Positions 1,601-27,300 of a DNA stretch of 64,000 bases are shown one piece after another. The stretch comes from Nageia nagi (taxonomy: Eukaryota; Plantae; Pinophyta), in assembly GCA_050084985.1 (NCBI GenBank), contig JBITNC010000001.1:194060001-194124000 (forward strand). The letters run 5' to 3'. The position numbers and the translations under genes are program-made. The notes beneath the pieces are model-generated. The model ran no database searches, was not told the DNA's origin, and saw only the letters and a program-made list of their open reading frames with translations. Within the stretch, counting starts at the first letter, position 1; the number at the start of each line of letters is the position of its first letter.

Positions 1601-4333
1601 TTTCTTTTTGGAGTTTTCTTGGCTATAGGGTTAGTATTAACATGTGCATTTTTATTGCAAGTAACAAAAATACATTAGGAATATAGTGTGTAAAAAAAAT
1701 CCTTAATAGATTTGACATTACAATAGAATTGTAGGTTTGAACGAAACTTTTATTTTAACCCTAATTAAGAGAAAGAAATCTAGTGAAATATAAATACTTG
1801 TGTGTCCTTACTTATGTTGAATTGTAGGTTTGAACGAAACATTACAATTGATATGTGTTTTGGTATCACCTAGGGTTTTACTTTAAATGAACTAAATACA
1901 TATAAACATTTATCATATGATTTATCTAAGCTAATTAACTCAAATAAACATACATGGATAAGGGAATATAATAGTGTAGTAATAGAATAATGAAATTACA
2001 TTAATGTCAAGATGTAAAATGAGCTACATATACCAAAGAGAAAGAAATCTAGTGAAATATAAATACTTGTGTGTCCTTACTTATGTTGAGAACAAGGATA
2101 TGATAGAAAAAATTATCGAAGAGTAGTGACTTTATTGTGCAAACCCCAAGGCCAACTATAGAAGAAACACTAGTGTGGGTGCTAATCCCTGAGAGCTTAG
2201 GATGGACATGAACGTTAGCATGAATGCAAATGTTCCTAAGGAATGAGGCTTTCCAACAAGGATTAACAATAGAAAAAATTATGATAAACTGAATCAAACA
2301 TATGATCATGGATTTGGATAGTAGATATTCGCTCGAGTGATAATTAGATTCTAGTCTCAATAGGTAGCATTTGGAAACACCCAATTGTAGGGTACCGATT
2401 ATCGAGATGTAATCTTGACATGCTTTCACTAGGTTAGAGATACTTACATATATATCAGGCATGATTCCCCATTTGAACCTTTGAATATTGGTTGAAGTCA
2501 TCTCGATGTACCTAACATAAGAACACAACCTAATAAATATGTGATAATAAGGTAAAATATGAGTAATATATGATTAAATGTGTGTATAACGTTGCACCTA
2601 AGTGGGACCATGTTAAAGGGACCACTTTTAAGTATCAACTGGAGGAATATTGCTATTGGTTGATAGGTGTGTAGGAGTATCGATATAAGAAGAAGGGTTC
2701 CCCACTTCATGACATAGTGTATCTATCCCCAGATGAGGAAAATAGTACTCGATGGTTTTGGCTCTTCATAATTGTTCTTATCAATATTATTCTATATATC
2801 AACAAGAACCATTAGTGTTTTCATACTGGTTTTATTCCCATTGTTCATAGTATTTATCTTTATGGAGAGTGTTATGCATGGGCTCCATGTATTTTGATGT
2901 GGATATACTAATATCTTCATAACTATGTATCTATGAAGAAGGAAGGAATATCATGGCCCATTCCTAATATCACTCTTATTACATCAATATCTAAATGGTG
3001 ATAGTGTACTAATTGATGAACATAGTAATTCATCAAAACAATGAGGTGTGAGTAGGGACATACACATCTACTTCTAATCACCAACTATCTTAATTGGGGA
3101 CATACACTTATAATAAACATTCCATCACCAAATGATCAAGGATAGGAACATTATCATATTTATCTAATATCAAGGATGTAAAGAGGAAGCTTATCATATT
3201 TGTTTACAACCATAATAAAACAATAATGGTTAGGGATCAAGAACATCCAATCAAAAAAATTGATTAGGGAATAAGCACATCCATTCAACTTATAATCCTT
3301 GTGACATACCCATATAGTAGCATACATATCTGAAGGAATTAAACCTTAAAGAACACAATCTTAAACTACCAAGATCATATGAAAGCTCACTGAAACATCA
3401 ATTTACTCAAAGCATAAAAATTTCACAAATTGATACAAGATATAAAGTGGTTTCTCCAACTAGAAGTACATCCATTATCTAAAATCTTTCTTCATTCATA
3501 AAGACAACTCTCTTACAAGATCTTTTTTGACATCTAATCACTATCTTAGAGCATAATTTTGCTTCACAAATTTATGGGTAATCTCAAATAGAGAGTATTC
3601 TATTTATAGGCTAAAATCTCCCTTTAGATCACCCTTTTAGCCATTTTACAAATGCATGTCATGCTTCACCCTTTTACCTAAAGGGCATGCTCATGCTAGG
3701 ATGGCCAATCATTTGCTCAAAAAATTATACAAGTTTCTTATGCAGAGCAAATTTACCATAAAGGTGTACAACAAAATCAACATTATATAGCATAAAATCC
3801 TCCTAAAAATGAAGTTATCATCACAAACATAAATTTAACATAAGAATTCAAACTTCACACCCCCTTGAGGGAAACTTCACCAACCTTATAGAATCCTTAA
3901 GCTAATAAACTAAGCTTCAATAAAGAGTTTGGTGAACAATCAATGGAGTTCAAGGTGGATGAATAATACTCCAAGTGAATGATGTCACCTAGAACTTTCT
4001 TCCTGATGAAATGGACTTGGATTTCTACATGTTTTATTCTCTAATAAAACATAGGATTCTTAGCCAAAGAAATAGTTGATTGATTATCTAAAGAGAAATA
4101 GTAGACTACTTCTTGGAAGCCTAAGAGATAGCACTTGAACCAATGTTGAACACATATGCAAAGATTGATTTCTCATCATTTTTATCTCCTCCATAGTCAA
4201 AATCTGAGAACCCTAAGAAAAAAATAAAAGTAACTTGGAATACTTGAGAGTAAGATCCCTTATCCCTGCAACATACCTCAAGATTTGCTTAACAGTATAG
4301 AGGTGCTAAACATATGGTTTTATATGAATTGAG

Positions 4334-4822
4334 TGAAGGAATTAGATCTAAACTAATTCTCAAGGTCCAAGACTATAGGAAACTTAATCATTCAACATCT
4401 ACAAGCTAATAACACCATTCACACAAGATAACACCAATATAAGTGGTTCCTCCCTCCTTAGGAGTACATCCACAACTAGATCTCAATTCTCAAACTATGC
4501 ACCCTCTTACTACAATTCCTTTCTCTTCTACATAAACTAGTAGAGTAATCTTACTCATAATCTAAGTGATATTACAAGAGAAGAGGCCCTCTATTTATAG
4601 CATGAGAGCACCTCTCTAACCTCCCTTTAACCCAAGGGTAAGGTTAGGGTTACAATAAATATATTACCTAACTTTAACCTACCAACTAACCACTTGGTAA
4701 GGTCAAAGTTTACATAATAAAGAATTCAATTAATCCCTTAAGGTATCTAAATATCCTTTAAGTGATTAATTGAATTTATAAGAAGTTTAGATATTCATAA
4801 TATTTTATTACAAATTCTAACA
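4334..4822 (-). repeat. Element A 3' LTR
   Basis: Direct repeat of 12723-13211 with about 14 substitutions by eye, all transitions. It is adjacent to the PPT AGGGGGAG (4823-4830). Confidence 0.97.
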
Positions 4823-5410
4823 CTCCCCCTTAATGCAATATTGGGATAGAGCATAGAAGAGAGAAGAGAGAGAGTAAGAGAGAGTTCTCCTCCATAGATA
4901 TACAAGCGGAGATGAGAACATTTACATATTTGAGAATCTTTTTGAGAACTAGTTTGAGACTCACTACATTACTATTTGACAAAATAGTTTACAATACAAT
5001 CATTAACCACAACTAGTTTCATTGTACATAGTAGTTGATCAACTTTAAGCTGACATGTGAGTCTCCATGAGTTTGCTTACACAAGGTGAGTAACCTGCAT
5101 TTCTGAAGAAGATCCTGCATGCTAAAAGCAACTCATGAATAAAATCAGTTAGATGCATCATATATTCATTTTATTAATAAGAGAATCAAATAATGCCATC
5201 TTATAAATAACTGATCAATGGTGCACTATAATTCATCACGGAGATGTCAAGCCATCACTCATAGTCACCTGTTGTATATAGACATGTGTTGATTATTAAT
5301 AGAGCATAACATATAGATGATTGTATAATACCTAAAGACACATATTAGATCTTTTCAAATGAATACTTGAATAATGAAACTGATTGATCAATTATATGCT
5401 CAAAAAATTG

Positions 5411-5690
5411 TACAAGTTTCTCACGCAGAGCAAACTTACCACGGAGGTATAGAATGTACAACAAGTTTCTCACGCAGAGCAAACTTACCACGGAGGTATA
5501 AAATGTACAAGTTTCTTACGTAGAGCAAACTTACCACGGAGGTATAAAATGTACAAGTTTCTCACGCAGAGCAAACTTACCACGTAGGTATAAAATGTAC
5601 AACAAGTTTCTCATGTAGAGCAAACTTACCATAGAGGTATAAAATGTACAATAAGTTTCTCATGCAGAGCAAACTTACCACGGAGGTATA
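5411..5690. repeat. Tandem array, 6 x 46-49 bp, in the 3' UTR of element A
   Basis: Unit tacaagtttctcacgcagagcaaacttaccacggaggtataaaatg; element B has only one copy (about 3728-3770). Confidence 0.93.
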
Positions 5691-5761: not shown

Positions 5762-8700
5762 TCAAACTTCACTCCCCCTTAAGGGCAACTTCACCAACCC
5801 GAGAGAATCCCTAAGCTTGCTGAACTGAGTTTCAGGAAGGGGCTTGGTGAATAAATCAGCAGAGTTTATAGTAGATGGACAATACTCCAAGTGTATGATG
5901 TCATCTAGAACCTTCTCCCTGATAAAATGGGCTTGGATTTCCACATGTTTGGTTCTCTGATGGAACACAGGATTCTTAGCCAAAGAGATAACCGATTGAT
6001 TGTCTGAAGAAATAAGAGATGGGCCATTTTGCTCATACCCAATTTTGTTTAAAACGATGCCTCAGCCAAATAGCTTCTTGGGCAGTAATAGACATGGCTC
6101 GATATTTGGCTTCGATGGTAGAAAGAGTCATAGTAGGTTGCTTCTTGGAAGCCCAAGAGATAGCACCTGAACCAATGCTGAACACATATGTAGAGGTTGA
6201 TTTTCTATCATCTCTATCTCCCTCATAATCAAAATCTGAGAACCCGAAGAGAACAATCGAGGGCACTTTGGAATACTTGAGAGTAAAATCCTTTGTCCCT
6301 TCCACATACCTCAAGATTTACTTAACAGCATTGAGGTGCTCAACATATGGTTTTTGCATGAATCGTGCCATCAGATTCATTGCAAAGGCAATATCAAGTT
6401 GAGAGATAGTCAGATACAGAAGACTACCAATCGATTGCCTATAAGTTGCAGCATCAGCCAACTGAGAATCTAAGCACAGAGATACAACGATTCCAAGAGA
6501 AATAAGTATTACAGCATATCTACACTCCATTCCAAACTTTTGCAAGATGTCTGATATATACTTTCGTTTGACTAAGATAAGTATAATCTTTATGTTGGTA
6601 TACTTGCATCCTAAGATAGTAATGCAATAGACTTAGATCAGTCATATCAAATGTTGCCTTCAGTTTGGATATGCACTCTTGGATGATTTCAATATTATTG
6701 CCAGTTATGAGAAGATCATCCATATAAAGGAGAATTAAGACCACGTCTTTTCCTTGATTAAGTACATAGAGATCTGAGTCAGAGAAGCATTTGAAAAAAT
6801 CAATATCTGCAAAGAATCCTAAAATTTTCTTGTACCATGCTCTAGGTGCTTGCTTAAGTCCATACAAAGACTTCTTTAGCTTGCACACAAAAGACTTTTT
6901 ACCTTCTAGAATAAATCCTTTTGGTTGATTCATGTAGATTTCTACATCCAAGTCACCATTGAGAAATGCACTCTTGACATCAAGTTGAAAAACTTTCCAT
7001 CCTTGAGCTGTAGAAAGAGTAAGGATTATCCTGACAGTAGGCATTTTGGCCACAGGAGCAAAGGTTTTCTCATAATCAATACCATATTTCTGAGCGAATC
7101 CTTTGGCCACTAACCTTGCTTTGTATTTTTCAATTTCTCCATCAAAATTGTACTTGACCTTGTATATCTATTTATTTCCAATCACATTTTTCTCATTAAG
7201 ATAAAGAACCAAATCCTAAGTTTCATTTTTCATGAGCACCTCATACTCAACTTTCATAGCTTCCATCCAACACTCTTGCTTGGAAGCTTCTTTGAAGGTT
7301 GATGGCTTATTCGTATTATCAATTTTGGTAAATAAAGATTTATTCAAGGTCATACTCCTTGTAATTCTCTGAGCTAAAGAATTTAGCTCTTATGGTGACT
7401 TTCTTACATTATCATCCAACCAGTTAGGTGCAAGCGAAGAATCATCTGAATCAGACATCTCAGCACAAGAAGTCATATCCTCAGGAAGTTCATTGAACTT
7501 GACATCCCTAGAAATAAAGACTATTTTATGGGATGAGGAGTAGAGCCTGTAACCTCTATGCTGATTATCATACCCCACAAAGATGCATTTTTTTAATCTT
7601 TTATCTAACTTCTTTCTTTTCTCTAAAGTAATAAAGGTAAATGCATCACAACCAAAGACCCTGAAGTGTGAGATGTTAGGTTTCTTTCCTGTCCATGCTT
7701 CATACAGAGTTTTTCCTTCAACTGCTTTAGTAAGACACCTATTTAGGGTGTGAATAGCAGTGTGAATAGCTTCTCCCCATAAGAAACTAGGAAGGTTACC
7801 CAACATGCACCTTGCCATTTCCATAATGGTTCGATTCTTCCTTTCAGCAACTCCATTTTGTTGAGGGATGTAAGGGATTGTGAATTGCCACTTGATCCCA
7901 TGTTTAACATAATAGTCGTTAAACTCATTGCTATTATACTCACCCCCATTATCAGATATCAACATCTTGATCTTAAAATTAGTTTGATTTTCAATAAGAG
8001 CCTTGAAGTCTTTAAACCTGTCAAAAGTTTGATCATTGTGCTCAAGTAGATAACCAAATGTCATCCTGTTGAATTCATCAATGAAGGTCAAAACATAAGA
8101 AGCTCCTCCTAGAGACTTAGTCTGAAACGAACACATCAAATCTGAATGCACAAGCTGAAGAGGATGAGTAGCCCGAGTTGCCTTATCTTTTTCAAACTTT
8201 TGCCTATTCATCTTTCCTAGAATGCACCTTTCACAGAGACTAATTGTGGGTGAAATATTAGGTAAACCTTCCACAAGTTCTTGATTTTTCATATCTTGAA
8301 TACTCTTGTAGTTAAGGTGCCCTAATCGTTGATGTCAAATATTACCCTTTGAACAAACATTTGCAGTAAGACACATCTTTGAAGGAACTTGATCCACAAT
8401 ATAAAGGTCATCCTTTACTGATCCTTTTATCAAGGTGGCAAGTCCTTTCTTAACACACCAGGAGTGTGAGGTAAACTCAAATGAGTATCCTTTCCTTGTA
8501 ATCTGAATTACGAAGATAAGATTCATCCTTAGTTTAGGCACATAAAAGACATTATCAAAAACCTTTCCATGAATCTTCATACTCCCTATTCCTTGAACAT
8601 CAAGGATTGAATTATCACCTATCATAACTGCATCCTTCTTGTACTTATGAAAGTTTTCAAACTTATCCTTTTCATAACACATGTGATTAGTGCATCCTGA

Positions 8701-9678
8701 ATCAACAATCCAATCATTTGAAATAGTTTGAGTCACTAAGTAGTAGGCAACAGTAGCAGCATGCTTAGTCTTCTTTTTATTATTGAAATTTTTCATATTT
8801 GCATTTCCCTTACCTTTTTGAGCAAATTTCTTTTTACAACAATCATACTCTTTGTGCCCAAAGATGCCACAAAAGTTATAATTTCTATCAAACTTTTTCT
8901 TAGGTGTTGGATTGCTTAATCTAGCTTTGTCATTCCTTTGCTTGAAGTTGCCATTATTATTGCCCTTTTTCTCATACTTCCTGAAGGTAGATGAGGATTT
9001 GTTATCTTTGAATTTATAATGTTTGAACTTCTTCTTGAAAGGAGTTTTGGTTGCTCTTAGAGCAATGCTTTTGTCCTTTGGAGAAAAGTTCAACATTTTC
9101 TTATTCAAAGTTTTCTCATGCTTCAGAAGGAGTCTAGAAAGGTTATCAAGAGAGATGACATCTTCTTCATCATCGAGCCTAGTTTCTATAACCGTGATAA
9201 AGTTACTAAACTTTGTAAAAAGGCTTTGAAGAATGATGAAGACCATGAACTCATTATTGATCTAGTTGCACCCACAGCCAACCAGTTGTGTCCTGAGGTC
9301 AATGATTTTGGTCAAGTAAATAGAAGCACTTTCATCTTCATCTTGACGATATTACAATAACTTTTGTAAAATAGTGAACCTCCTTGAAAATTTTGACCCA
9401 AAGTAAATTTTCTTCAACCTATCCCAAGCTTCCTTTGCTGATGTTGAAGAAGAGATCATGAGAAGTACATCATCTGAAACTGCACAATAAATCATTGAAG
9501 TTGTTAACTCATTCTTTGAGTTGTAGATTTCAAGAGCCTTCTCATCTGTAGGAGCGACCAAGTCTTCATTAACTATCTACCATAGCTTCCTTGCTTGTAA
9601 CTCAACTTTCATACAAGGTTCCCATATGCCGAAGTTGGAACCACCGAGTATATGCTTGGGTATAAAGGTTTCAACCAT
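5762..9678 (-). pseudogene. copia A gag-pol pseudogene
   Basis: Starts MVETFIPKHILGGSNFGIW. Contains a degenerate zinc knuckle (NFCGIFGHKEYDC), protease WIVDSGCTNHM, integrase (SDNGGEY, QQNGVAERKN), RT (QLDVKSAFLNG, YMDD) and RNase H (KNPVFHQRTKH, ADLFTKPL). Several in-frame stops and a frameshift are present. Confidence 0.95.
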
Positions 9679-11494
9679 TGCTACATAAAAGTAAATAAGC
9701 AAGAAGAATGAATAAATTTTTACAATTTACCATCTATACAAATCAAACATTGATAAGTAAACATGTCCCACATGTGCAAACTTATAAACCAAGATCTGTA
9801 GAAGGATAAAGTTGAGGTTATTTTCTTGTATAGAATTAGGCCTTCACCTGGATGCCCGCAAAGTGGAGCCCAAGTACTACCAGTCCTCAACCAGTTCACC
9901 TTGGTCAGTAATATACTCTCTCAAGAAGTACCAACTATTTTCTAAGGATTCGACGTATCTTGGATCGGCCATTTTAATTATCTTGTTTAAAGTTTTTACG
10001 TGTTCCTCCTAGGTTATCAGGATAATCCCTAAATAGACGTGCGGATATGTGGTATCACTACACACATGCCTATCCACCTAATAGAGTTATGTCCAATCCA
10101 ACAGAGGTCTTAGGGGTAATTAAGATGGATTTACCATCACTTGGTTCTTCAGACTAAAAAGGCTTCAGTCTACCCTATCCTCGCCTCGTGGCTCTCCAAA
10201 CAAGTCATGTTGTGGAAAAGTACGTGCGGATGTGTTCATTTTAGGGGTTACTTTCAATATTTTGCATTTTGCAAGTATAAAGTAATTATGCAAAAATATA
10301 AAGTAAAGTATTAAAAAAATACATCATCCATAAGAACTTGAAATATAAGAGTCCAATGGGTTTTGTACTAACCCCTAAAGGATATTTTTACATTTTGCAT
10401 ACTTGCTTAAGTTCATAAATTCATTCAACACTTTAATGAATTTAAAAGGCTAAATCCTACTTAGCATTAATCCATAACTTAAAAAATTAAGTAATAAACA
10501 TGCATCATTTAAAAATGCATAATTTAACTTAAAAATTTTAAGTACTAAGCATGCTTTATTCCTGCATAAGATTAAGAGGCATGCATTACAAATTTAGCAT
10601 GCAAGATCTAGATAAAATTTTAAGTAAAAAAAACTATACAAATTCTCCCTTTTTTACTTAAAGTTTTATCCCTAAAACTTGTATGCTAAAAAAAATTGTC
10701 TTTTAAGTATGCATTTATATTTTAAGTAAAAAATTTTCCTTGTTTACTTAAAAAAATAGCATAGGTTTCCCTTTTAGGAAACATGAAATCATTAAAAAAT
10801 ACATAGGTAAAAAAAAATCCCTTAAAATGTTAATGTTACATTAATATTTATCATTTTACCTAAGTAAATTGCCAAACTTAAAAGTATTTAAGGCAAATAA
10901 AAAATATATACTCCTAAAGAATTAACTTTATTTGCCATATTTTTTTAAAAAATTGGATAGCATTGAAGAGTAATGATGTATCTACTTACTTTAAAGTATT
11001 ATAGTCATCATCACAATGCTTAAAGTTGGAGTATAAGTACTTCTAAGTGCATTTAATAAGAATAAATGACTTGTAAGCAAGCAAAAAATATTAAATGCCT
11101 AAAAAGTATACATTTGCTTCTAGAAAGCTTGCAAGTATTAATGAAAAAAAAGAAAGGAGACCTATGCATAGTTAATGCTCCTTTTACCTCAAGCACTCCA
11201 AGTCAAAAAAAATAAATGCTTTTAAGTAAAAAAATGGCTACCCTTCCCTTACCAAGAAGGAGTAAACGTTGCTTTGCATGCGCATTTAAGAATATGCAAG
11301 TAGTCAGTCAACAAAAAATTAAATGCACAAAGAAGAAAGGGCCTCCATCTTAAAAAAAAATGGGAGAAGATCACGCAACATGGAGGTCAAGAGAAGGTTT
11401 TGCTACCAATTTTGTTGCATCATGAATCTGAGAGGTAGAGGCTGACAATAGGGTAGAGGCTGGTAGTAGGGCTGAGAAGAGTGCGTAGAGAATA

Positions 11495-11677
11495 GTGTGT
11501 ATGTGTCTTTGTCGTAAGCAAAATGTGCATTGCGTGCTTCAACCACCCGTTTAGACAGAGTTGTGAGAGAGCAACATTCATATCATTTTGGTATGAGATT
11601 GAATGGCCGTGAAAATGCGCGCAACAAAAGACCATGGCCTTGGAGAGCGAAGGAGGTGAAGGTGGCCTTACGGCCAT
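11495..11677 (-). pseudogene. Possible captured 5' fragment of a PLS-class PPR gene
   Basis: SQLCLNGWLKHAMHILLTT resembles the LC..GRLKEALHILLTT-type N-terminal motif of plant PPR proteins. The match is short. Confidence 0.35.
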
Positions 11678-11721
11678 CTATTTCTACCCCTGTTAATATT
11701 AGAGGTCACGAGAGAAGGTGC

Positions 11722-12015
11722 ACGCAGAAAAAATCAGAAATCTACACATATGAAGCTCCCTGGCAAATTTGGAGCTCTCCATTTCATAAGCAATTTTGCC
11801 TTGGGATAGGTAGTTTCCTTGAGGAGATCAACAACAAGGTACAGATCATAGAGCTAGATGAGGAATCTGGGGAACTCAAGAGTGATCCTAAATTAGTGTT
11901 TGACCATCCATACCCCACCACCAAGTTCATGTTCGTGCCGAATAAGGATTGCCAGAAGCCTGACCTTGTGGCCACCACCGGGGACTACCTAAGAATTTGG
12001 CAGATGGGTCCATGA
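11722..12015 (+). pseudogene. Captured 5' fragment of a LWD/AN11/TTG1 (DCAF7-family) WD40 gene
   Basis: QKKSEIYTYEAPWQI...IGSFLEEINNKVQIIELDEESGELKSDPKLVFDHPYPTTKFMFVPNKDCQKPDLVATTGDYLRIW matches the conserved N-terminus of this family. It is truncated after the first WD repeat and lies inside element A, antisense to it. Confidence 0.9.
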
Positions 12016-12708
12016 GAAGGTGCGCGCAGAGGGCTACGGTGGCGGCAAGGACGACCGAGCGACGAAGGCTGCAGGGGTAGCAACGGGCAACCATTGCAGT
12101 CCATAGACTACATTTCAATGAGGCATTCTATCAAACAATTCACAAACCCTTTCAATGTATCTGATTCTAAAATTGCACTTGAATTATGTGACATTTCATG
12201 TCCATTTATTTCTAGCAAAATTGTACATTAGTTTATGCAAGGAAAAAATAACAAAAAAATATTAACCTTTTAAGGTTTGTAAACTTCTGTTAACATATTT
12301 CACTTGACATACCAAATTTTTTTTTTTAAAAGTTATTAATCAATGCTACTAACAAACAAAATGTTAGTAAAAATAATTGCATTACATAGTATCCTCTTAA
12401 AAGGTATATCATGTATTAAGCATTTTGTAAAAAAAATGCTACTAACATAAGAGGTTAGTATAGGAAAAAAAATTGCTTGCATTACCATTTTGATCATATT
12501 TTGCAAAAAATAAGCTCCAATATCTCATAAAATATGTTAGTATCTAATGCAATAATCCATAAGATAACCAAAGGAGGAGGAAATTTATACCTTCTCTTAG
12601 TTTTACCTCACCAATGGGGTGTGAGATGAGGAATGAAGAAGGATCACTAAGATGTAGCTTCCACACCAAAAAGAAAAGCTTTCACACCAAGAAGAGCTTT
12701 CACACTAA

Positions 12709-12720
12709 GCTCTGATACCA
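12709..12720 (-). promoter_or_regulatory. Primer-binding site (tRNA-iMet) of element A
   Basis: Minus strand TGGTATCAGAGC, 2 nt from the LTR end. Confidence 0.95.
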
Positions 12721-12722
12721 AT

Positions 12723-13211
12723 TGAAGGAATTAGATCTAAACTAATCCTCAAGGTCTAAAACTATAGGAAACTTAATCATTCAACATCTACAAGCTAATA
12801 ACACCATTCACACAAGATAACACCAATATAAGTGGTTCCTTCCTCCTTGGGAATACATCCACAACTAGATCTCAATTCTCAAATTATGCACCCTCTTACT
12901 ACAATTCCTTTCTCTCCTACACAAACTAGTAGAGTAATCTTACTCATAATCTAAGTGATATTACAAGAGGAGAGGCCCTCTATTTATAGCATGAGAGCAC
13001 CTCCCTAACCTCCCTTTAACCCAAGGGTAAGGTTAGGGTTACAATAAATATATTACCTAACTTTAACCTACCAACTAACCACTTGGTAAGGTCAAAGTTT
13101 ACATAATAAAGAATTCAATTAATCCCTTAAGGTATCTAAATATCCTTTAAGTGATTAATTGAATTTACAAGGAGTTTAGATATTCATAATATTTCATTAC
13201 AAATTCTAACA
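12723..13211 (-). repeat. Element A 5' LTR
   Basis: Direct repeat of 4334-4822, followed on the minus strand by the PBS. Confidence 0.97.
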
Positions 13212-16200
13212 TTGAGCCATCAAATTCACTACAAAGGTAATATTTGACTTAGAAATAGTCAAATAAAGAAGACTTCCAATTAATTACTTGTAAGTTGTAG
13301 CATCTACTAACTGAGAGTTAGAGCTAAAAAATATAGTGATTCTAGAAGAGACTGGGATTGCAGCATGTCTACACTCTTCCATTCTAAATTTTTGCAAAAT
13401 GTTTGATATATACTTAGATTGACTAAGATAAGTACAATCCTTGTATTGGTATACTCGTATTCTAAGGTAATTATGTAAGAGATCAAGACCAATCATTTCA
13501 AATATTGCCTTAAGTTTGGATATGCATTCTTGAATGATCTCATCATTATTTCTAGTTATTAAAAAATTATCCACATAAAGGAGAATCAAGACCACATCTT
13601 TTTCTTGATTTAGCACATAAATATCGAAGTCAAAAAAGCACTTGGAGAATCCAATGTCTTCAAAATATCTTAAAATATTCTTGTATCAAGCTATAGATGC
13701 TTGCTTAGGTCCATACAATGACTTCTTTAGCTTGCATACAAATAACTTTTTTCCTTCCATAATAAACCGTTCTGATTGATTCATGTAGATTTCCAGATCT
13801 AAGTCACCATTGAGAAATGCACTCTTAATGTCAAGTTGAAAAACTTTCCATCCATCAGCTGCTAAAAGAGTAAGAATTATTCTAACAATAGGCATCTTTA
13901 CCATGAGAGAAAATGTTTCCTCATAATCCACTCATATTTTTGAGCAAAAATTTTAGCTATTGACCTTGCCTTATATTTCTCAATATCCCCAATTGAATTG
14001 AATTTGACCTTGTAGATCCACTTATTTCTAATCACATTCTTCTCGTTAGGATAAGGAATCAAGTCCCAAGTTTTATTTTTCATAAGTGCATCATACTTCA
14101 CTTTCATGGCTTCCATCCAACATTTATGATTTGAAACTTCTTTAAATGATGATGGCTTATTCTTATTATCAATTTTTGCAAATAAAGATTTGTTCAAGGT
14201 CATACTCCTTGTTATCCTTTAAGTTAAAGAATTTTATTCTTGGGATAACTTGTCTATATTAATATCTAACCAGTTAGATGCAAATGATAAGTCATCTAGA
14301 TCATCAACATCTTCATTAGAAATAGATTCTTTAGAAAGATCATTGAACTTTACATCCTTTGATATGAACACTGCTCTATAGGATGGATAGTAGAGCCTAT
14401 AGACTTTATGTTGACTATCATAACCCAAAAAGATGCATTTTTTAACTCTTTTTTTTAACTTTTTTCTTTTCTCAGCAATAATGTAGGAGAATGCTTCACA
14501 ACCAAACACCCTAAGGTGAGAAATATTAGGTTTTATTCCTATCCATGCCTCAAAAGGATTTTTTTCTGCAATGATTTTGTGGAACACCTATTCAAGATGT
14601 AAATTGTAGTGCTCACAAGCTTCACCCCATAAAAAACTAGGAAGATTTTCCAACATGCATCTAGTCATCTCCATAATTATCTTTTTTTTTATAACATCAT
14701 TTTTTTAGGCATGTAAGGAATTGTAAACTACCTTTTGATTCCATACTTAGCACAATTAACATTGAACTCATTACTGTTATATTCGCCCCCATTATCTGAT
14801 CTCAATATCTTAATTTTAAGGTTAGTTTGATTTTCAACTAAGACCTTAAAATCTTTAAAACTCTTAAAGTTTTGATCCTTATGCTCAAATAAATAACCAA
14901 ATATCATCCTACTGAAGTCATTGATGAAGGTCAAGACATATGATGCTACCCCAAGTGATTTAGTTTAAAACAGACCTATTAAATCTGAATGCATAAGCTA
15001 AAGAGGATGAGATGCCCTTGTTGCCTTATCTTTTTCAAACCTTTGTCTATTCATCTTACCTAGGATGCACTTTTCACACAAATCGATTAAAGGTAAAATT
15101 GAAGGCAAACCTTTCATAAGTTCTTGATCTTTTATGAATTGAATACTCGTATGGTTAAGATGTCTTAATCGATGGTGTCAAAGATTTTTTCTAAAGCACA
15201 CATTCGTAGCAAGACACATCTTTGTTAGAACTTGATCCATAATGTAAATATCATATTTCACTGATCCTTTAACCAATGTGGCAAGTCCCTTCTTAATGCA
15301 CTAGGAGTGTGAGTTGAACTCAAATGAGTATCCTTTTCTAGCTACTTGAATCACAAAGAGAAGGTTCATCCTGAGATTAAAAACATAGAGCATATTATGA
15401 AGAACCTTCCCATGAATCAACACACTCCCAATTCTTTAGACTTTAAGGATTGCATTATCACCTATCACAGCTATATTTGTTTTATACTTACAAAAAATTT
15501 CAAAATTATCCTTTTCAAAGCATAGGTGATTAGTGCATCCAAAGTCAACAATTCAATTCGTTGAAGAAGAGTAAGTCATGGAGTAGAGTCCAACAACAAG
15601 TCCAACTTTTATAGTTTTCTTCTCTATGAAGTTCTTTACATTTCCATTACCCATGTTCTTTTCTTCTCTTTTCTTTTTATAGCAATCAAATTCTTTGTGA
15701 CGAAGGATGCCACAAACGTTACAATTTCTATCAAACTTTGCCTTGGGATTTGGTTTACTTATCTTGCCTTTTCTATCTTTTTTTTTGAAGCAGTAATTAT
15801 TATTATTTCCTCTTGTCTCAAACTTTTTAGAAGAATGATAAGATTTTTTTTATGATTGAACTTCTTCTTGAAAGGAGTTTTGGTTGTTGTTAAAGAAATG
15901 TTATTTTCCTTTGGAAAAGAGATCAACACCTTTTTGTTGAGAGTTTTCTCATGCTTTAGGAGCCTTGAAAGGTTCTTAAGAGAGAAGACTTCTTCTTCTT
16001 CATCAATCCTAGTCTCAATGACTATCTCAAAATTATTGAACTTAAAATAAAGGCTTTGAAGAATGATGAATACCATGAACTCATCATTGATCCAATTACA
16101 CCCATAAGAAATAAGTTGGATCTTAAGATTAATAATTTTTTTCAAGTATATTTTAGCATTTTCTTCTTCCCCTTGATGATATTGAAGAAAATTTTGGATA

Positions 16201-16508
16201 ATAGTGAACCTTCTTGAAAATTTATATCCAAAGTAAATTTTCTTGAACCTATCCCAAGCTTCCTTTGCTGAGGTTGATGATAAAATCATAAGAAGCACTT
16301 CATTTGCTAATGCATGAAAAATCATGAAGGTTTCCAATTCATTCTTCGTGTTGTATGTTTCAAGTGTCTTCTCATCTATAGAAGCAACTAAGAACTCATT
16401 AACTATTTTCCAAAGCTTCCTTACCTTCAATTCAACTTTCATCTAAAGTTTTCAAATATCAAAATTGAAACCATCGAGAATGTGTTTGGGTAAGAAGGTG
16501 TCTGCCAT
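13212..16508 (-). pseudogene. copia B gag-pol pseudogene (gag, protease, integrase, RT N-part)
   Basis: ORF fragments contain SAKEAWDRFKK, RSDNGGEY, LRVFGC, QLDIKSAFLNGDL and LYVDN. There are many stops and frameshifts, and it is colinear with element A. Confidence 0.9.
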
Positions 16509-17349
16509 TTGCTACATAAGAATGTGAAAGTGTTAACCAATGTAAGCATGTGGACTAGATTAACCAACTTTACATGTTTAGTTTTAAACATCCATACATG
16601 TTTGAATAAAACAACCATACATTTTAAATTTGATAAAAGGACATATTTAATTTGTTTAAACAAAGTTCACATGTGCAAATGTTTAAAATAGAAACTCATA
16701 ATACATCCCATGTATCCAACACTTTTGTCATCACCAAGTACCATAAATATAGAGGGATAATGTTGAGGCTTATTTTCTTTTTTAAAATTAGGTCTTCATC
16801 TGAATGCTCGTAAAGTAAAGCCTAGGTCCTACCAATCCTCAACTAGTTCGCCTTGGGTAGTAATACACTCTCACATTATTTCTCATACAAAGAAAAACAT
16901 TTAATGCACAAATATTCCAAGAAAAATATGAATACTACCACGGACAATTGACCACAATCACTCACACCCACCCAATGAAAATAAATGATTAAAATAAAAT
17001 TCTATATCTAGGTCAAGCACTATATGATAATGTTTGTTAATATCTCCAAATGGTAACTTATCACCTATTGCCAAGGGATTTGAGAGACAATTGAGGTGTG
17101 ATGGCACCCACATTGAATGTCTCAAGTTCTACTCCCACCTCTTACATTGTTGATATTTGAAAACTCTTGATAGGTCCTGCAAACCAATAGGTTTAAAGGA
17201 TGTTAAGTGTTGACTTTAACTTTATTAGTGTTTCATAAAACATTAGAAAAAATAAATTAATTAAATAAACACATTAAATAAATTACCAAACAAGGAGCAT
17301 ATGTTATCAACTTGGCAATAGCAAACCCTAAAATGAGAATTCATTGTCA

Positions 17350-21244: not shown

Positions 21245-21340
21245 CTATCCTTTTATGGAGTCTGCCTGAACAAACGGATTAGCAATCGCATCAGTTCCGT
21301 CTGTTGGAGCAACAAGCATGACAGCAGTCCCTCTGCAAAC
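21245..21340 (-). CDS. LSM7: LSM7 last coding exon (VCRGTAVMLVAPTDGTDAIANPFVQADSIKG*)
   Basis: tttgacag|GTTTGC...GGATAG; 96 nt; Sm2 motif. Confidence 0.96.
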   Translation of the reverse strand, partial: VCRGTAVMLVAPTDGTDAIANPFVQADSIKG

Positions 21341-24300
21341 CTGTCAAATTTTAGATTATTAGGATAACAATTAAGACAAGGTTGGAAACCTGAAACGGAA
21401 ATAACATTCAACAAAGACATAATATATATTGTCATCCCTACACTTCACTAAAAGAATTGTTTACATTTTTTGTTGTAAAGCTCTGTTGATACAATCTTTC
21501 CAAAAACCATGAAGTTAACAACTTCCTCTGTGGAACTTCAAAGAAGACGGTAAGATTAAGGGACCCTCTGCTAGGATTTCCTAAAATAATAGAGGATGAG
21601 TTTTATGATTGACCGCACTTATAGGGCTTCTGCTGGAAGGGAAACCATTTGGCGAAAAGGTGTGTGACGAGGGATCATGGAAGATATCTTTTCCTCTGAG
21701 TCTACATTTTGGGTTCTTTAGTTGATTCTTTAAACAATTACCCTTGGAGTCAATCTTCAAGATGATGGTAGAGTGAGATAGAGAACATCACAAGCTTCAT
21801 CATTAAAAGCTGACCACATTTTTCTCTCGGTCCCTCATTCCAGAAAATTAAAAAGTTCAACATACTTCCCACCCTAATTTTAACCAAAGAGGCAAACATG
21901 TCTAAAGACATCATATTGATTTCTAAAGCAATGCTTCATGCATGTTTCCATTTTGATATTCTCATGCCACCAACAGACTTGTCACCTGTGTCTATAACTA
22001 GTTTTTCACAGCAGACAAGCTCCTAAAATCTAGAGGAAAGAATCACTCAATTTTTCAGGATATACAACTGAAAGTGGATAAAACACATTAAAATAGAATC
22101 CATACACAATTAATTGCACTTAATGGCAATCTTATCTTTCAGTTTCCCATCTGTAATCATAAGAAAAGAGGAAATACTCTTTCACGTGAAGTAAGAAACC
22201 TCGGAATGAGTGACAAGACCATTACAACTGATGCTAAGATGATCCTTGAGCAAAGTAAGTAACAAATCTCAAATGCAAAGGGAGTGTGCAAGGTATTCAG
22301 CCATTAAACAATATAAAACTTACAGTTTGACTTGAATGAAGTTCTTTACATCAATTCTTTTGTGTGGAGTGTGCAAGAGACACATTGCACATCTTCTGAA
22401 CTGAGATATATTATATTTGTTTGTTAAAGCCAATTTTAATCTTGCTATACTGTACAATGGAGAAAACAAAGTATATTCTCTTCTATTTTCCTACTAGCAT
22501 ACACATATCACAAACTGACCAATACAGGATATTTGAGGTACAAAACTGTTAGAACTTATAATGCATTATTGTGTAAACAACATAGGTATATTGTTTCTAA
22601 TTAATTGAAAATCGAAGGAACATATACAACACCTACGTTAGGAGGAAAAAGATTTTAAATATTTAGTGAAGTAAGAAAATGGTATATAAGAATGGTAATT
22701 GGAAGACTCTCCATCTACCATTCTCATCTAACATAGGGATATGTTTACTCTATGGGCGATGGCATGCCCCTTGGGTAAAAGAGTGAACCAAAGAGGCTTT
22801 TTTTACCTATAAATAGAGGGTCTCCTTCATGTAAGACATACGCTTGTACAAGCAGTATCATGCTACTAGTTTGTTTAGAGATATAGGTTGATAAAAGGGC
22901 TTAAGGAAACATAACAGAAAATAAACTACGAAATAACACTTCCAGATCCAATGTCCAAGCAGAGACATTATGATAGCAAAATGTAGACAGAATAAAGATA
23001 GGAATGGATAACCACAATTACAATATGTTTTTGTGCCTGGTGAGCTTACACCAAGGTTGCCTCCAATAGGGGTTTTTGCGAATGGCTCAAGGGCCTCACC
23101 AATCGTAGCAGAAGCAAGGCCAAGCCCAAGGCTTCCCTACTTCTCTATGATGGAACAATCAGGGTTCCTCTCCCGAATGGCTGGAGTAAGCTCAAGGCTA
23201 GCCTTCAATCACCTCAAGACCTCAAATGTAAATTGCTCCACAAGTGACAAAGAAAGAGTTCTCACACTCAATCTAATAAAAAGGGGTTTAATCATAAATT
23301 CAGCATATCTTGTGTAATCCAGTAGTCCTCCTTATATAGGAGAGGTAGTCCATCTTCTAATCTTGTGTTGAGGTGATCTAACAGTGCATAATGATGATCC
23401 GTGTGCTTATGATGCCAACGTCCAAGATGAAGAGCCTTGGGATGAACGTAATCACATCCAAGAGCCTAGAAATGCAATGTTGGGATGAGGGGCCTTAAGT
23501 GTGTCTCGGTGTCGCTGCTATGCGCTGGGATTCCTCCAGGAAGGTGACGTGGGGCCTAGGAGTGCCCAGATTTCCAACATGGAGGTCAAGTCTCCTCCAG
23601 ATGTCTAACATGGGGCCTGAAATGCCAAATCTATCCAAAGTCCAAGGGTGGTAGTCGTGTGATGTCTCAAGATGCCAAATATCGCTCTTGGAATGCCACG
23701 TCCAATCTTGGAAGCTTTCCTCGTGCCTCATAGTTTGTGTAATCACATAAGGGGGTGCTCTACCTCGAAGAAGGAAGCACTAATCACAAGAGGACCATCT
23801 AATGCCAATTTACAATCATCAAGGCTAAATATGCAATGTCCCATTAATTGGAAACTAATATTGCACTTACAATCTTAATGGCCTCAACATTATTGGCATA
23901 TTAAGGCACTCAACTATACATAATGAACTAAATAAAGGCCCAATGTTCCATAATTAGAGCATTTAACTAAGTCTCTAAGTGGAACATACAATATTTGGCA
24001 GAAAACTACTAAAATAGACAAAATCACTCCTAAACTAATGTTCCCATTTATCAATGGTGAAATGGGGAAAACAAAATAAAAATGGGGACATTACAAGTCT
24101 GACCTTCACAAATTGCTTGTACCCAAGCAATTCGGAACATCCACAGCTGCAGCAAAGTCTTCTTGACCCTTCTCTTTGTCTTCAAAACCATGCATCATGG
24201 AGAGAATGGAATCTTCATACTTTGGTTGCCTTCTGAACTAAACCTAGCTTCCTCTTGGGTTCCATCAATTTGTTTCTGTGAAGGTGGTCAAGCGTAGCTC

Positions 24301-27300
24301 TCTTGAAGGCTTTTGGGGCATGATGGGCTAAATCTCCTTCTGCTATGGCCAACCGTAGCTCATGGTTGATCCTCACTCCTTTGATGGTGACCTTTTGTCC
24401 CTTGAAGGTGAAACTTACTTCTTGAGTTTGGAAGTTTGTTTGGACATCTCCCAAAGGATGCACCCATTGAACCCCAATCATAACTTGTTGCAAACTGTCT
24501 TGAAGAAAAACATAGAAATCATCCTCAAGTATGTAGTTTCCCATCTTGATTCTAAGCCTCACTGTGTTGTTGCAAACTGTGTAGTAACCATTGGCATTGG
24601 TCACATATATCCCTTCCACATCCTTGGTGGGCAAGTCCTTTGCTACAAATCCCTTGTCAATGAAGCTCCTTGTTGCTCCATTATCAATCATGACAAGTAT
24701 TTCTTCACCAACGGTTTCTCCTCTAACTTTGATAGAAATGTATGGAGGTAGTTTATTGTTTCCCTCCTCAATCATCTTCATATCTATAAATGATTCCTGA
24801 AAAAATGAGGATCTTGCCTTGCTTGATTAGGCATGTTGGGAGCCCAATTTTCCTTGCCAATTTCGCAGTTTTCCTTTGGCCTTCTTTGGACATGAATCCT
24901 CATCCCTGTATGTGTCTTTTTTGGCCCACCTTCCCTACATCTAGATGGAGATGGTTCAACATGGGTTACCACTTGTTCTTTGGTTTTTCCTTTTTGAGAA
25001 TTCAAACACCTCTTCTTCCTCTTCCCTTGTGATCTCAATGAAGTCTTTGAAGCTAAGTGATGCCTTTATGTCATGAGGAAGAGTAGAATAGGCTTGGACA
25101 AGTTTGTGCACTGTTGTAGTAAGCTTGGAGTCTACCTGATTGCTCATGTTGTCTCCCTCTCTCCAACGTGTGCACCTTTTTTGGTGAATTTTGCCTTTTT
25201 AATCAATTATTGCCACGGAAGCTCTACCAATGTGAAAACCCTTGTTTTGGCCTTCACAATTGTGTTCCGACTGCCAAAGCTCTTTGCAACAAAAGCAAAC
25301 TCAATAGTACCTTGGAAATTTTTGGAGAAAAGCCTCTTCCTTCTACATTCTGAAGGATGCCATGATAGTGTCCTAGCTTCCCACAGATTTCCACTAAGAG
25401 TCTTAGTGCCTCAATTCTTCCTCCCAATCCAAAAGAATTTGCAAGATGCTTGCATCTAGATCTATCTTCAAAAAATTCAAATTATGGCCTCAAAGTGTGG
25501 ACATTAGCCTCTAGTGGAAGAAATGGTGAAAAAAGGTCTCTTCAAACTTCACGAATTCCCTCAAGCTCAGAATTGGGCTTTCCAAAAAACCAACGAAGTG
25601 CCTTCAAGTGCTAGAATGATTCCTAGTGCTCAACGCATGCCTCCTATTCCTCTAGCTGCCCAATGAGCTCCGTGAAAGTGCCACGCAGACCTTCCAACTC
25701 TTTTGTTGATAAACATCAAGCTCTTGCTCCTTGAATTCGAATTTTGGATCTCAAAATTGGTGTGCTCTTCCTCTAACCCAATAGTTGGATTTATAGGCAT
25801 CAAAAGTGATTTGAATTTGTCTTTTTTATACTTGCATCATGCTTTCCCTCCAAAATTCAAATTTTGAGCACAATAAAATGATACCTAAAACATAACACCT
25901 TATCTCTCCTAATTTTAATGAGTGTCAAATTAAAAATAATAAAATATCTTTAAATCAAAATAATTCTATTTTTCTCCAAAATACAAAAACAAAAATATTT
26001 TTTATTTTTCTCAAATATTTTCTCCTTTTTTATTTTCTCCTAAATACAACAAATAAAATATTTTTTTCTTTTTCACCTTATTGCTCCTTAAATTAAATAA
26101 AACTCTCCCTTGGAATAAAAAATGCAAATGAACTCAAACCTCGATTTTAATTCTTTCCATGGTGGATGATTCAATTCAAGTGCCAAATCGAATAAGCTAA
26201 ATGTTCACACAAGCATGGAATGATGTAGAATTAACTCCAAACTTCAACAATATGCCAAGATCCCATACGTCCAAGCTCAAATGATCAGATTTTTGCAAAT
26301 CCACAATGAATTGAGCTTCCTCATCACCCAACGTCTCACTTCTGGCTCTCAAATCTTGACAATATTGGCAAAAATGACCAAACGCCTCTCTTTAAGCTTC
26401 CATTATGCAAATACCAATGCGAAAATATGTCAAATTCAGCGATTTGACTCTTCCTATGGCTCAACGTCCTCTTCCCAGTGACTCCAAACTCCAATTTCTC
26501 AAAAATTTTGGCTTGGATGACCCAACAACCTTGCAGAAGCTATCAGAATCCAGATTCCATGATGAAAATGTCAATGCCTGCAATTTGATGTCACTATGAT
26601 GCAAACGCTCCTCAAAAATGGCCTCGGAATGCCTAAACGATCCTCAAAATGACCTTACAATACCAACGTTAGCCTCAAAATGACCAAACGACCTCAGATC
26701 TAGGCCTCTTAAGTCTCAATGAACCTCCTCTTGGCTCCTTGAACCTCAGATCCAAACAAACAAACCTCAAACTTGATGCAAAATATCAAAACTTTTGAAA
26801 ATAATCACTCACCAAGCTAGACGATCCTCCTTGAAGCTTCAAAATTGAAAATATGGTCAAATTATGACCAACAAACTTGCCAAAAGGGTGAGATCTGACC
26901 TTTAGACCTTCAATGTTGGACTCCCAATGTCTAGATCTAGCGAATTGACTACCATAACTGCAACATCAATCTTCCAAGGATAGAATGCTTCAGATCTCCA
27001 CAATTTTTCGAAACCACGATGATCTCAAGTCAATGCCGCAATGAAATTCATTCCAGATCTTCCAACATGACGATAAGATCTCAGCAAATCCTTCTCTTAC
27101 TCGACAAAAATGGTCAAGATCTCCTCAATAACTTCTCCTTTCTTACCTGACAGAAAAGGGCAAGATCTCAACAAATAATACCATTGTGATATCACTCTGA
27201 CCAGTGAATTGGTATTTCCTTCAGCTAAGCTCAGAAATTCTCCATGTGTGATGCCTTTGATTCTAGCAGGATGACAGAATCAAGGCTCTGATACCACTAT

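What the first reader, a model, noticed from the sequence alone, without database searches (positions are those of the whole stretch)
11712..12030. Copia retrotransposon carries an antisense fragment of a host LWD/AN11-type WD40 regulator gene
Seen: a roughly 97-codon, stop-free stretch matching the N-terminus and first WD repeat of the DCAF7/AN11/LWD/TTG1 family lies between the PBS and gag of an element with intact LTRs and TSD. It is opposite to the element's transcription. Established: LWD1/2 are clock regulators and TTG1/AN11 are MBW-complex scaffolds; gene-fragment capture is well known for Pack-MULEs and Helitrons and less often described for copia. Inference: element transcripts would contain antisense WD40 RNA and could drive siRNA or methylation cross-talk with the host gene. 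If the fragment is present across the family, it has been amplified as cargo.
Basis: partly seen in the sequence, partly recalled or inferred. Interest (0 to 1): 0.8.

Follow-up and report, generated by a model that had tools for sequence, protein, structure and literature searches.

The report
Host clock-gene scrap in conifer retrotransposon
A broken jumping gene in a conifer-type plant carries a backwards 285-base scrap of the host's LWD clock-protein gene, likely pasted in by error-prone DNA repair, shared with related species and likely decaying without a function; such captures are reported in the hundreds of thousands per conifer genome, so this is ordinary.

Summary
Bases 11725-12009 (+) are a piece of a gymnosperm LWD gene (78% amino-acid identity; groups with one gymnosperm LWD paralogue, not TTG1). 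It lies antisense in the 3-kb leader of a broken copia element (489-bp LTRs, 5-bp TSD, about 7 My). A transcript contig of a related species matches it about 97% outside a 19-nt scar and runs on as LWD coding sequence at both ends. The insert is framed by a 17-nt duplication, a 4-nt microhomology and a short filler that matches donor sequence elsewhere: a likely DNA-repair signature. The same junctions or scar occur in three related organisms, in two of them as divergent variants, so it is not a one-off, but cover is far lower than over the leader ends: a small sub-lineage, not family cargo. Six of seven window-specific changes alter amino acids, and the stop-free frame is expected by chance (about 70%). 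Small-RNA cross-talk is possible in sequence terms but untested. Copia gene capture, without orientation bias, and siRNA cross-talk are published for maize; mass capture is published for conifers. Verdict: new member of a known kind, low interest.

The parts
4334..4822 (-). 3' LTR of the copia element (489 bp)
   Evidence: 97.1% identical to the 5' LTR
4329..4333 (.). Target-site duplication TTGAG (left copy)
4823..4833 (-). Polypurine tract
   Evidence: sequence read directly
5762..9678 (-). gag-pol in copia order, broken by stops and frame changes
   Evidence: Pfam Retrotran_gag_2, Pol_BBD, gag_pre-integrs, rve, RVT_2; breaks; the RNase H part had no Pfam hit and is named from recall
9679..12708 (-). 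Long leader between PBS and gag (about 3.0 kb)
11340..12160 (.). GC- and CpG-richer mosaic patch in the leader that holds the LWD piece; sub-blocks 11483-11592 and 12105-12161 match other repeated sequence also seen in RNA-type runs
   Evidence: GC 45-52%, CpG o/e 0.61-0.87 in the flanks against 0 in the LTR; depth steps and loose ends
11712..11728 (+). Left copy of the 17-nt duplication; its last 4 nt (CAGA, 11725-11728) are shared with the donor (microhomology)
11725..12009 (+). Captured LWD coding fragment (about residues 9-106 of a 339-aa protein), antisense to the element
11769..11787 (+). 19-nt internal scar replacing a donor stretch 12 nt longer; starts with a fold-back palindrome and holds short inverted copies of neighbouring sequence; shared with copies in organisms A and B
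12007..12018 (+). Right-junction filler word: bridges donor end (GGT) and duplication (GAGAA); in copies of organisms B and C it equals a 12-nt word inside the donor stretch lost at the scar
   Evidence: 12012 reads G in X2 and X4; donor word in the X17 loose end before 11794; chance estimate
12014..12030 (+). Right copy of the 17-nt duplication
12709..12720 (-). Primer-binding site of initiator-Met type (tRNA type recalled)
12723..13211 (-). 5' LTR (489 bp)
13212..13216 (.). Target-site duplication TTGAG (right copy), inside an older related copia element

Best explanation
This is a 285-base piece of the host's LWD gene lying backwards in the leader of a broken copia element; it was likely pasted in once by error-prone, microhomology-guided DNA repair, likely carried along passively in a small sub-lineage of the element, and is likely decaying without function. 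Shown: identity of the piece, its limits, the 17-nt duplication, the 4-nt microhomology, the scar, and the same junctions or scar in three related organisms. Inferred steps: a break in the leader of an ancestral copy; the free end primed on LWD DNA or cDNA at CAGA, copied about 300 nt with a fold-back slip (the scar), slipped again onto an internal donor word via GGT and returned to the element 17 nt back via GAGAA; later retrotransposition spread that copy; methylation-driven C-to-T decay followed. Any silencing RNAs from these copies would match the donor, but this is a by-product.
For: Donor contigs in RNA-type runs X5 and X7 cover exactly 11725-12009 (13 other letters, 12-nt gap) and continue as LWD coding sequence on both sides. 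17-nt repeat with 1 mismatch; 1 of 300 random position pairs 302 apart gave as good a match. Microhomology of 4 nt or more at a random junction about 0.017, of 5 nt about 0.005; a given 12-mer in a 297-nt template about 4e-5 exact, 2e-3 with one mismatch (post-hoc figures). Microhomology of about 3 bp plus fillers templated from nearby or foreign DNA are the marks of polymerase-theta end joining in Arabidopsis (PMC10923293, passages). Antisense orientation does not fit first-strand switching onto a co-packaged mRNA (inference from the model in PMC5131818). Shared origin: left junction bridged by 2 contigs of X1 (6 and 1 differences in 69 nt); right junction by 1 contig of X2 and 1 of X4; scar in 2 contigs of X1 and the end of it in 1 of X2; 2 pairs of variant contigs in X2 (8 of 9, 8 of 14, 3 of 3 and 3 of 3 laid contigs were shown). 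Decay: 6 of 7 listed window-specific changes alter a residue; 6 of the 7 listed private changes of the X1 copy fall on CG sites; 7-8 random changes leave the frame open 66-73% of the time.
Against: No contig shows the empty site, so the duplication is read as a target duplication without the unfilled allele. No contig links another copy of the fragment to a copia LTR or gag, so spread by retrotransposition is inferred; segmental copies or a smaller mobile patch could give the same picture. Reverse transcriptase also jumps at microhomologies and can add de novo bases (PMC5131818), so the junctions do not prove DNA repair. The inverted 8-of-9 match in the scar is weak on its own (about 0.06). 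The scar could be a later event than the capture. Difference tables were cut by the tool, so the change counts are partial. All laid runs are from relatives, not shown to be the window's own species.
Confidence: 0.62

Rival explanations
1. Reverse-transcriptase template switching: the LWD mRNA was co-packaged and copied during second-strand synthesis, or during copying of a transcript running the other way (a backward promoter in the leader, or a second plus-strand element from which the patch came), and the chimera was then amplified.
For: Microsimilarity at both ends and partial mRNA copies are the marks of LTR-mediated retrocopies (PMC5131818, passages). The donor is abundantly assembled in RNA-type runs. 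A PBS-like word (9 of 10) follows a CA at 11585 on the + strand, and the block 11483-11592 is repeated and seen in RNA-type runs. Maize Sirevirus captures show no orientation bias.
Against: Antisense to the copia RNA; element sequence is duplicated rather than replaced (in the Drosophila cases element sequence was replaced); fold-back and inverted filler suit a DNA template better. Most related contigs leave the window at 11592, before the PBS-like word ends, so that word is not shown to be a family PBS. The donor has no intron in this stretch (ungapped DNA-type contigs in X4 and X17), so intron loss cannot decide.
Confidence: 0.2
2. The LWD piece was captured by a different small mobile unit (the 0.8-kb GC-rich patch, from another repeat family) that later landed in this copia leader; the copies in relatives need not be in copia elements.
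For: The patch differs in GC and CpG from the rest of the element; its sub-blocks have their own depth levels and loose ends; two contigs that cover 12156 onwards leave the window there; in X2 and X4 the right-hand motif also occurs with other left flanks.
Against: No terminal inverted repeat or duplication framing the patch was found (only scattered 9-mers); one X2 contig runs from 12156 into the high-cover leader at 12343; all 30 bins of 11000-12750 have cover in X1 and X2.
Confidence: 0.15
3. Selected regulatory cargo: antisense LWD RNA from element transcripts makes siRNAs that tune the host clock/flavonoid scaffold gene, or shields the element from silencing.
For: 141 of 262 24-mers and 153 of 265 21-mers still match the related donor. 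Cross-talk siRNAs are linked to CHH methylation of captured regions in maize (10.1101/777037); conifer donor genes are more methylated (PMC13477047).
Against: Same papers: syntenic donors keep their expression and capturing elements gain no clear advantage or copy number. This copy is broken and its LTRs have no CpG left. The donor in organism A keeps CG sites that the captured X1 copy lost and is assembled as 1.8-kb contigs in two RNA-type runs. Low cover relative to the family.
Confidence: 0.08
4. LINE-type (target-primed) retrocopy inserted into the element.
For: A 17-nt duplication is in the size range of LINE target duplications (recalled).
Against: No poly(A) tail; the 3' end lies in mid coding sequence at 12009; filler and microhomology at that end.
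Confidence: 0.04

Closest known systems
Gene-fragment capture by Sirevirus (copia) LTR elements in maize and the 'epigenetic conflict' model (Muyle et al., 10.1101/777037; passages read)
   Same: Copia element with an exon fragment; antisense orientation is as common as sense there; siRNA cross-talk is the proposed consequence; captured elements do not reach high copy number.
   Different: Gymnosperm host; 5' coding piece in the PBS-gag leader (Sireviruses favour 3' exons, 64%); no small-RNA data here; copia lineage not determined.
Mass gene-fragment capture by TEs in gymnosperms (Platycladus genome paper, PMC13477047; passages read; supplements not read)
   Same: Conifer TE with one captured fragment from the first exon of a conserved gene; copia examples shown; average 481,821 capturing TEs per conifer genome.
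   Different: That survey did not resolve junctions; here they are read base by base and traced in three related organisms.
Maize Bs1 and LTR-mediated retrocopies (PMC5131818, passages; Bs1 as summarised in PMC13317346 and PMC7264820, passages)
   Same: Partial host coding sequence inside an LTR element, microsimilarity at junctions, further rounds of copying.
   Different: Antisense, element sequence duplicated not replaced, no chimeric reading frame with a start codon of the donor, neutral decay.
Polymerase-theta-mediated end joining with filler DNA (PMC10923293; passages)
   Same: Short microhomology, patchwork fillers templated from nearby or foreign DNA.
   Different: Described for engineered breaks and T-DNA in Arabidopsis; here a natural ~300-nt host template with a 17-nt duplication; enzyme not testable.
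LWD1/LWD2 clock proteins, closest homologues of TTG1 (PMC6977477; passages)
   Same: The donor belongs to this family.
   Different: Only about residues 9-106, no start codon of the donor, scarred; clock function of the gymnosperm donor is assumed from Arabidopsis, not shown.

Membership tests
Ty1/copia LTR retrotransposon | Paired LTRs with TG..CA ends and 5-bp TSD | tested here: met
Ty1/copia LTR retrotransposon | PBS after 5' LTR, PPT before 3' LTR | tested here: met
Ty1/copia LTR retrotransposon | Order gag-PR-INT-RT with copia-type RT (PF07727) | tested here: met
   RT relatives are copia proteins
Autonomous copia element | Unbroken gag-pol | tested here: not met
   stops and frame changes
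Named copia lineage (Gymco, Ale, Ivana, SIRE etc.) | RT placement against a lineage reference set | not testable with these tools
   one search gave no lineage labels
LWD/AN11/TTG1/DCAF7 WD40 family | Sequence similarity to the N-terminal part | tested here: met
LWD (not TTG1) clade, gymnosperm paralogue A | Groups with gymnosperm LWD proteins of the 339-aa type | tested here: met
   98/95 support in the full-length tree, 84/87 in the trimmed tree (Ginkgo copy just outside); 23 rows picked by hand from the proteins held
Functional LWD gene | Donor start codon, whole propeller, purifying selection | tested here: not met
   about 29% of the protein; 6 of 7 listed changes non-synonymous
LTR-mediated retrocopy (template switch) | Microsimilarity at junctions | tested here: met
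LTR-mediated retrocopy (template switch) | Intron loss relative to donor | tested here: inconclusive
   donor has no intron in this stretch
LTR-mediated retrocopy (template switch) | Insert sense to element RNA, element sequence replaced | tested here: not met
   antisense; 17-nt duplication; the sense requirement is my inference from the model
LINE-type retrocopy | Poly(A) tail and mRNA 3' end | tested here: not met
Polymerase-theta-type templated insertion | Microhomology plus fillers copied from nearby templates | tested here: met
Polymerase-theta-type templated insertion | Dependence on the enzyme | not testable with these tools
   historical event
Nested Pack-MULE/CACTA/Helitron | Terminal inverted repeats, own TSD or Helitron ends round the patch | tested here: inconclusive
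   no TIR or framing duplication found; Helitron ends only looked at by eye
Family-wide cargo | Present in most copies of the family | tested here: not met
   cover about 2-27 against about 700-24,000 at leader ends; depth is only a rough guide
siRNA cross-talk system | 21-24-nt RNAs mapping to both fragment and donor, donor methylation | not testable with these tools
   only sequence match counted

The most novel reading that the evidence does not exclude
Copia leaders in these conifers are repair-fed collectors of host genes: polymerase-theta-type patching writes host coding DNA into the leader in either orientation, the element spreads it across species, and silencing RNAs from these copies reach the LWD clock and flavonoid scaffold gene. 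The Phi-1 fragment 18 kb away, within the span of a related LTR pair, would be a second case.
Probability: 0.12. Interest if true: 0.6.

Novelty: new member of a known kind. Interest (0 to 1): 0.27.

Why it matters
As a class it is known and very common in conifers. Its modest value is as a clean, datable specimen: donor, both junctions, an internal scar and several descendant copies can be read base by base, and they point to DNA repair rather than reverse-transcriptase switching, a route that a 2026 review of plant gene capture does not mention in its main text (0 hits for repair, DSB, filler, microhomology in PMC13317346), though the Platycladus paper names FoSTeS/MMBIR as possible. The scar and junctions also give reads that tell captured copy from donor, so the cross-talk idea is cheap to test here.

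Tried and rejected
No whole genome is held, so copies could not be counted. No solved structure matched the fragment. Two exact-pattern scans of metagenome contigs found 0 matches. A search among short proteins found 24 of 40 candidates, none above 68% identity, so no translated captured copy. No RNA holder is on record in the run search: no evidence either way on expression. No empty-site joint in either lay, no scar-bearing contig in RNA-type runs X5 and X7, no donor-type contig shown in X1 or X2, and no junction contig among the 3 laid from the deep run X17: holes, not evidence. The older copia into which this element is inserted shows no match to the patch, but its leader match ends at 16875. 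Rfam: 1 weak match below gathering score at 10592-10691. The promoter scan is for bacterial promoters and says nothing here. First try at the LSM7 exon used the wrong frame. RT search did not give a lineage. Earlier-finding look-ups by sequence and place were empty. Paper search for LWD1 with retrotransposon/captured/WD40 listed 10 of 120 papers, none on this capture by title or abstract start; searches served for background; seen as listings only unless passages are cited. Rejected: a hidden gene kept by selection (neutral change pattern); TTG1/AN11 as donor (tree); a unique post-insertion event (shared junctions); a plus-strand PBS at 11589-11598 as proof of a second element (relatives diverge before it ends). 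Supplementary tables of PMC13477047 (counts by superfamily) were not read and may bear on how common copia captures are.

Full report
Observation. The frame 11722-12012 on the + strand is open for 97 codons and matches LWD/AN11/DCAF7-type WD40 proteins: 191 of 218 candidates at E<=0.001, best 78% identity. The best cluster contains proteins of Picea, Taxus, Cryptomeria, Ginkgo and Wollemia, so the host is a gymnosperm; the donor's start and a second paralogue seen resemble the Wollemia and Araucaria proteins, which suggests the Araucaria/podocarp side (inference). In a tree of 23 hand-picked rows the fragment falls with the 339-aa gymnosperm LWD paralogue (98/95), away from the TTG1-type rows.

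The element. LTRs at 4334-4822 and 12723-13211 (489 bp, 14 transitions, no transversion, K2P 0.0295), TSD TTGAG, PBS 12709-12720 and PPT are all present. gag, protease, integrase and copia RT lie on the minus strand in copia order, broken by stops and frame changes. At 2.2e-9 per site per year, the gymnosperm rate used in PMC13477047 (passage), insertion dates to about 6.7 My (3-10 My). It sits inside an older relative (76% identical over pol). The leader from PBS to gag is 3.0 kb; the LWD piece lies in it, antisense, within a patch (about 11340-12160) richer in GC and CpG than the rest.

The donor. No genome is held, so I laid public contigs from relatives. In two RNA-type runs of organism A (X5, X7; RNA is the tool's guess) one contig each, 1,856 and 1,811 nt, covers exactly 11725-12009 with 13 other letters and a 12-nt gap and continues as LWD coding sequence at both ends. 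Seven of the 13 fall in one block; outside it at most 8 of 266 nt differ (about 97% identity). DNA-type contigs of the donor in X4 and X17 cross the stretch without an intron.

Junction anatomy. A 17-nt direct repeat (11712-11728, 12014-12030, one mismatch at a CG site) frames the insert; 1 of 300 random pairs at that spacing did as well. Its last four letters on the left are also the donor's first four. On the right the donor ends in GGT at 12009; four letters follow before the repeat. In copies from organisms B and C position 12012 reads G, and the 12-letter word 12007-12018 then equals a word inside the donor stretch that is missing from the fragment (exact in organism H's donor, 11 of 12 in A and C). 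That missing stretch is replaced by a 19-nt scar (11769-11787) that opens with a fold-back palindrome and holds short inverted copies of neighbouring sequence. Post-hoc chance figures are 0.017 and 0.005 for the microhomologies, 4e-5 to 2e-3 for the 12-mer, and only 0.06 for the inverted 9-mer. Microhomology of about 3 bp with templated fillers is the signature of polymerase-theta end joining in plants (PMC10923293, passages). Reverse-transcriptase switching also uses microsimilarity (PMC5131818, passages), but first-strand switching onto an mRNA would give a sense insert (inference), and in the Drosophila cases element sequence was replaced, not duplicated.

One copy or many. In one search (shown: 8 of 9, 8 of 14, 3 of 3, 3 of 3 laid contigs) two X1 contigs bridge the left junction, with 6 and 1 differences in 69 nt; one X1 contig runs 11736-12010 ungapped through the scar with 15 differences, and another leaves at 11782; one X2 contig and one X4 contig bridge the right junction; X2 has two pairs of variant contigs. 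So the capture predates this insertion or at least the split of these organisms, and A and B likely hold more than one copy. The three X17 contigs (organism H) are donor or paralogue only; the fragment shares a Leu codon at 11875 with the donor of C, where H and the other conifer proteins have Phe, so capture likely came after that change. Against family-wide cargo: summed depth is about 2-27 over the fragment, 60-600 over parts of the patch and about 700-24,000 over the leader ends in X1 and X2; the tool warns that this is no copy number. No contig spans from the fragment to an LTR, and no empty site was seen, so spread by retrotransposition is inferred.

Function. Of the 7 listed changes specific to the window's copy, 6 alter a residue; 6 of the 7 listed private changes in the X1 copy are at CG sites. 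Seven or eight random changes leave this frame open 66-73% of the time, so the stop-free state needs no selection. The window copy's 7-8 changes exceed the 3.8 expected from LTR decay only mildly (P 0.04-0.09). For cross-talk, 141 of 262 24-mers still match organism A's donor, so it is possible; but the donor keeps CG sites that the X1 copy lost, and is fully assembled in a species that carries the capture. No small-RNA or methylation data were available.

Comparison with what is known. Maize Sireviruses (copia) capture gene fragments (204 elements), with no orientation bias, siRNA cross-talk, kept expression of syntenic donors and no copy-number gain (10.1101/777037, passages). Conifer genomes hold on average 481,821 TEs with captured exon pieces, copia among them, favouring first exons (PMC13477047, passages). 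Bs1 and additional or antisense frames in plant LTR elements are reviewed in PMC13317346 and PMC7264820 (passages). LWD1/2 are clock activators in Arabidopsis (PMC6977477, passages); the role of the gymnosperm donor is assumed. I found no paper on this particular capture (10 of 120 listed).

Verdict. Real, correctly located, and ordinary in kind: a host LWD scrap, likely repair-inserted, carried by a small sub-lineage across at least three related organisms and likely neutral. New member of a known kind; interest 0.27. Its best use is as a well-marked test case for capture mechanism and siRNA cross-talk in conifers.

Noticed in passing
window 29640-29875 (+): Frameshifted C-terminal fragment of a Phi-1/EXORDIUM gene (Pfam PF04674, E 4.5e-10; translation) in a GC-rich, tandem-repeat patch (29100-30420) between AT-rich flanks, within the span of an LTR pair 22547-22898 / 35179-35531 (89%) whose 3' region resembles this element's (71%). 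Possibly a second captured gene piece; its carrier is not established.
   Followed up: partly
window 21251-21340 (-): Exon of an LSM7 gene, C-terminal part (E 1e-6 to LSm7 chains); the copia lies downstream of it on the same strand.
   Followed up: partly
window 3700-4329 and 13212-16875 (-): Older, decayed copia of a related family (76% over pol) into which the element inserted.
   Followed up: partly
window 22895-28701: Nested LTR element with 1.2-kb LTRs (90.6%) and a gypsy-type aspartyl protease remnant on the minus strand.
   Followed up: no
window 41001-41728 and 45980-46303 (+): DUF659 pieces, usually hAT-type transposase remnants (recalled); an RVT_1 remnant at 44275-44670 (-) lies between them.
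   Followed up: no
window 5412-5690 and 51917-52556: Tandem arrays: 49-bp unit, about 5.8 copies, in the element's 3' region; 64-bp unit array elsewhere.
   Followed up: no
window 11483-11598 (+): Repeated block also seen in RNA-type runs, ending in CA, TTT and a PBS-like word (9 of 10); most related contigs leave at 11592. Origin unexplained.
   Followed up: partly
window 10592-10691: Imperfect hairpin in the leader; weak Rfam miRNA-precursor match, 28 bits against a cut-off of 70, likely chance.
   Followed up: partly
run X1, record 8 (window 11736-11782): One copy of the captured fragment leaves the window's sequence inside the scar and continues in unrelated DNA: a truncated or interrupted copy.
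   Followed up: no
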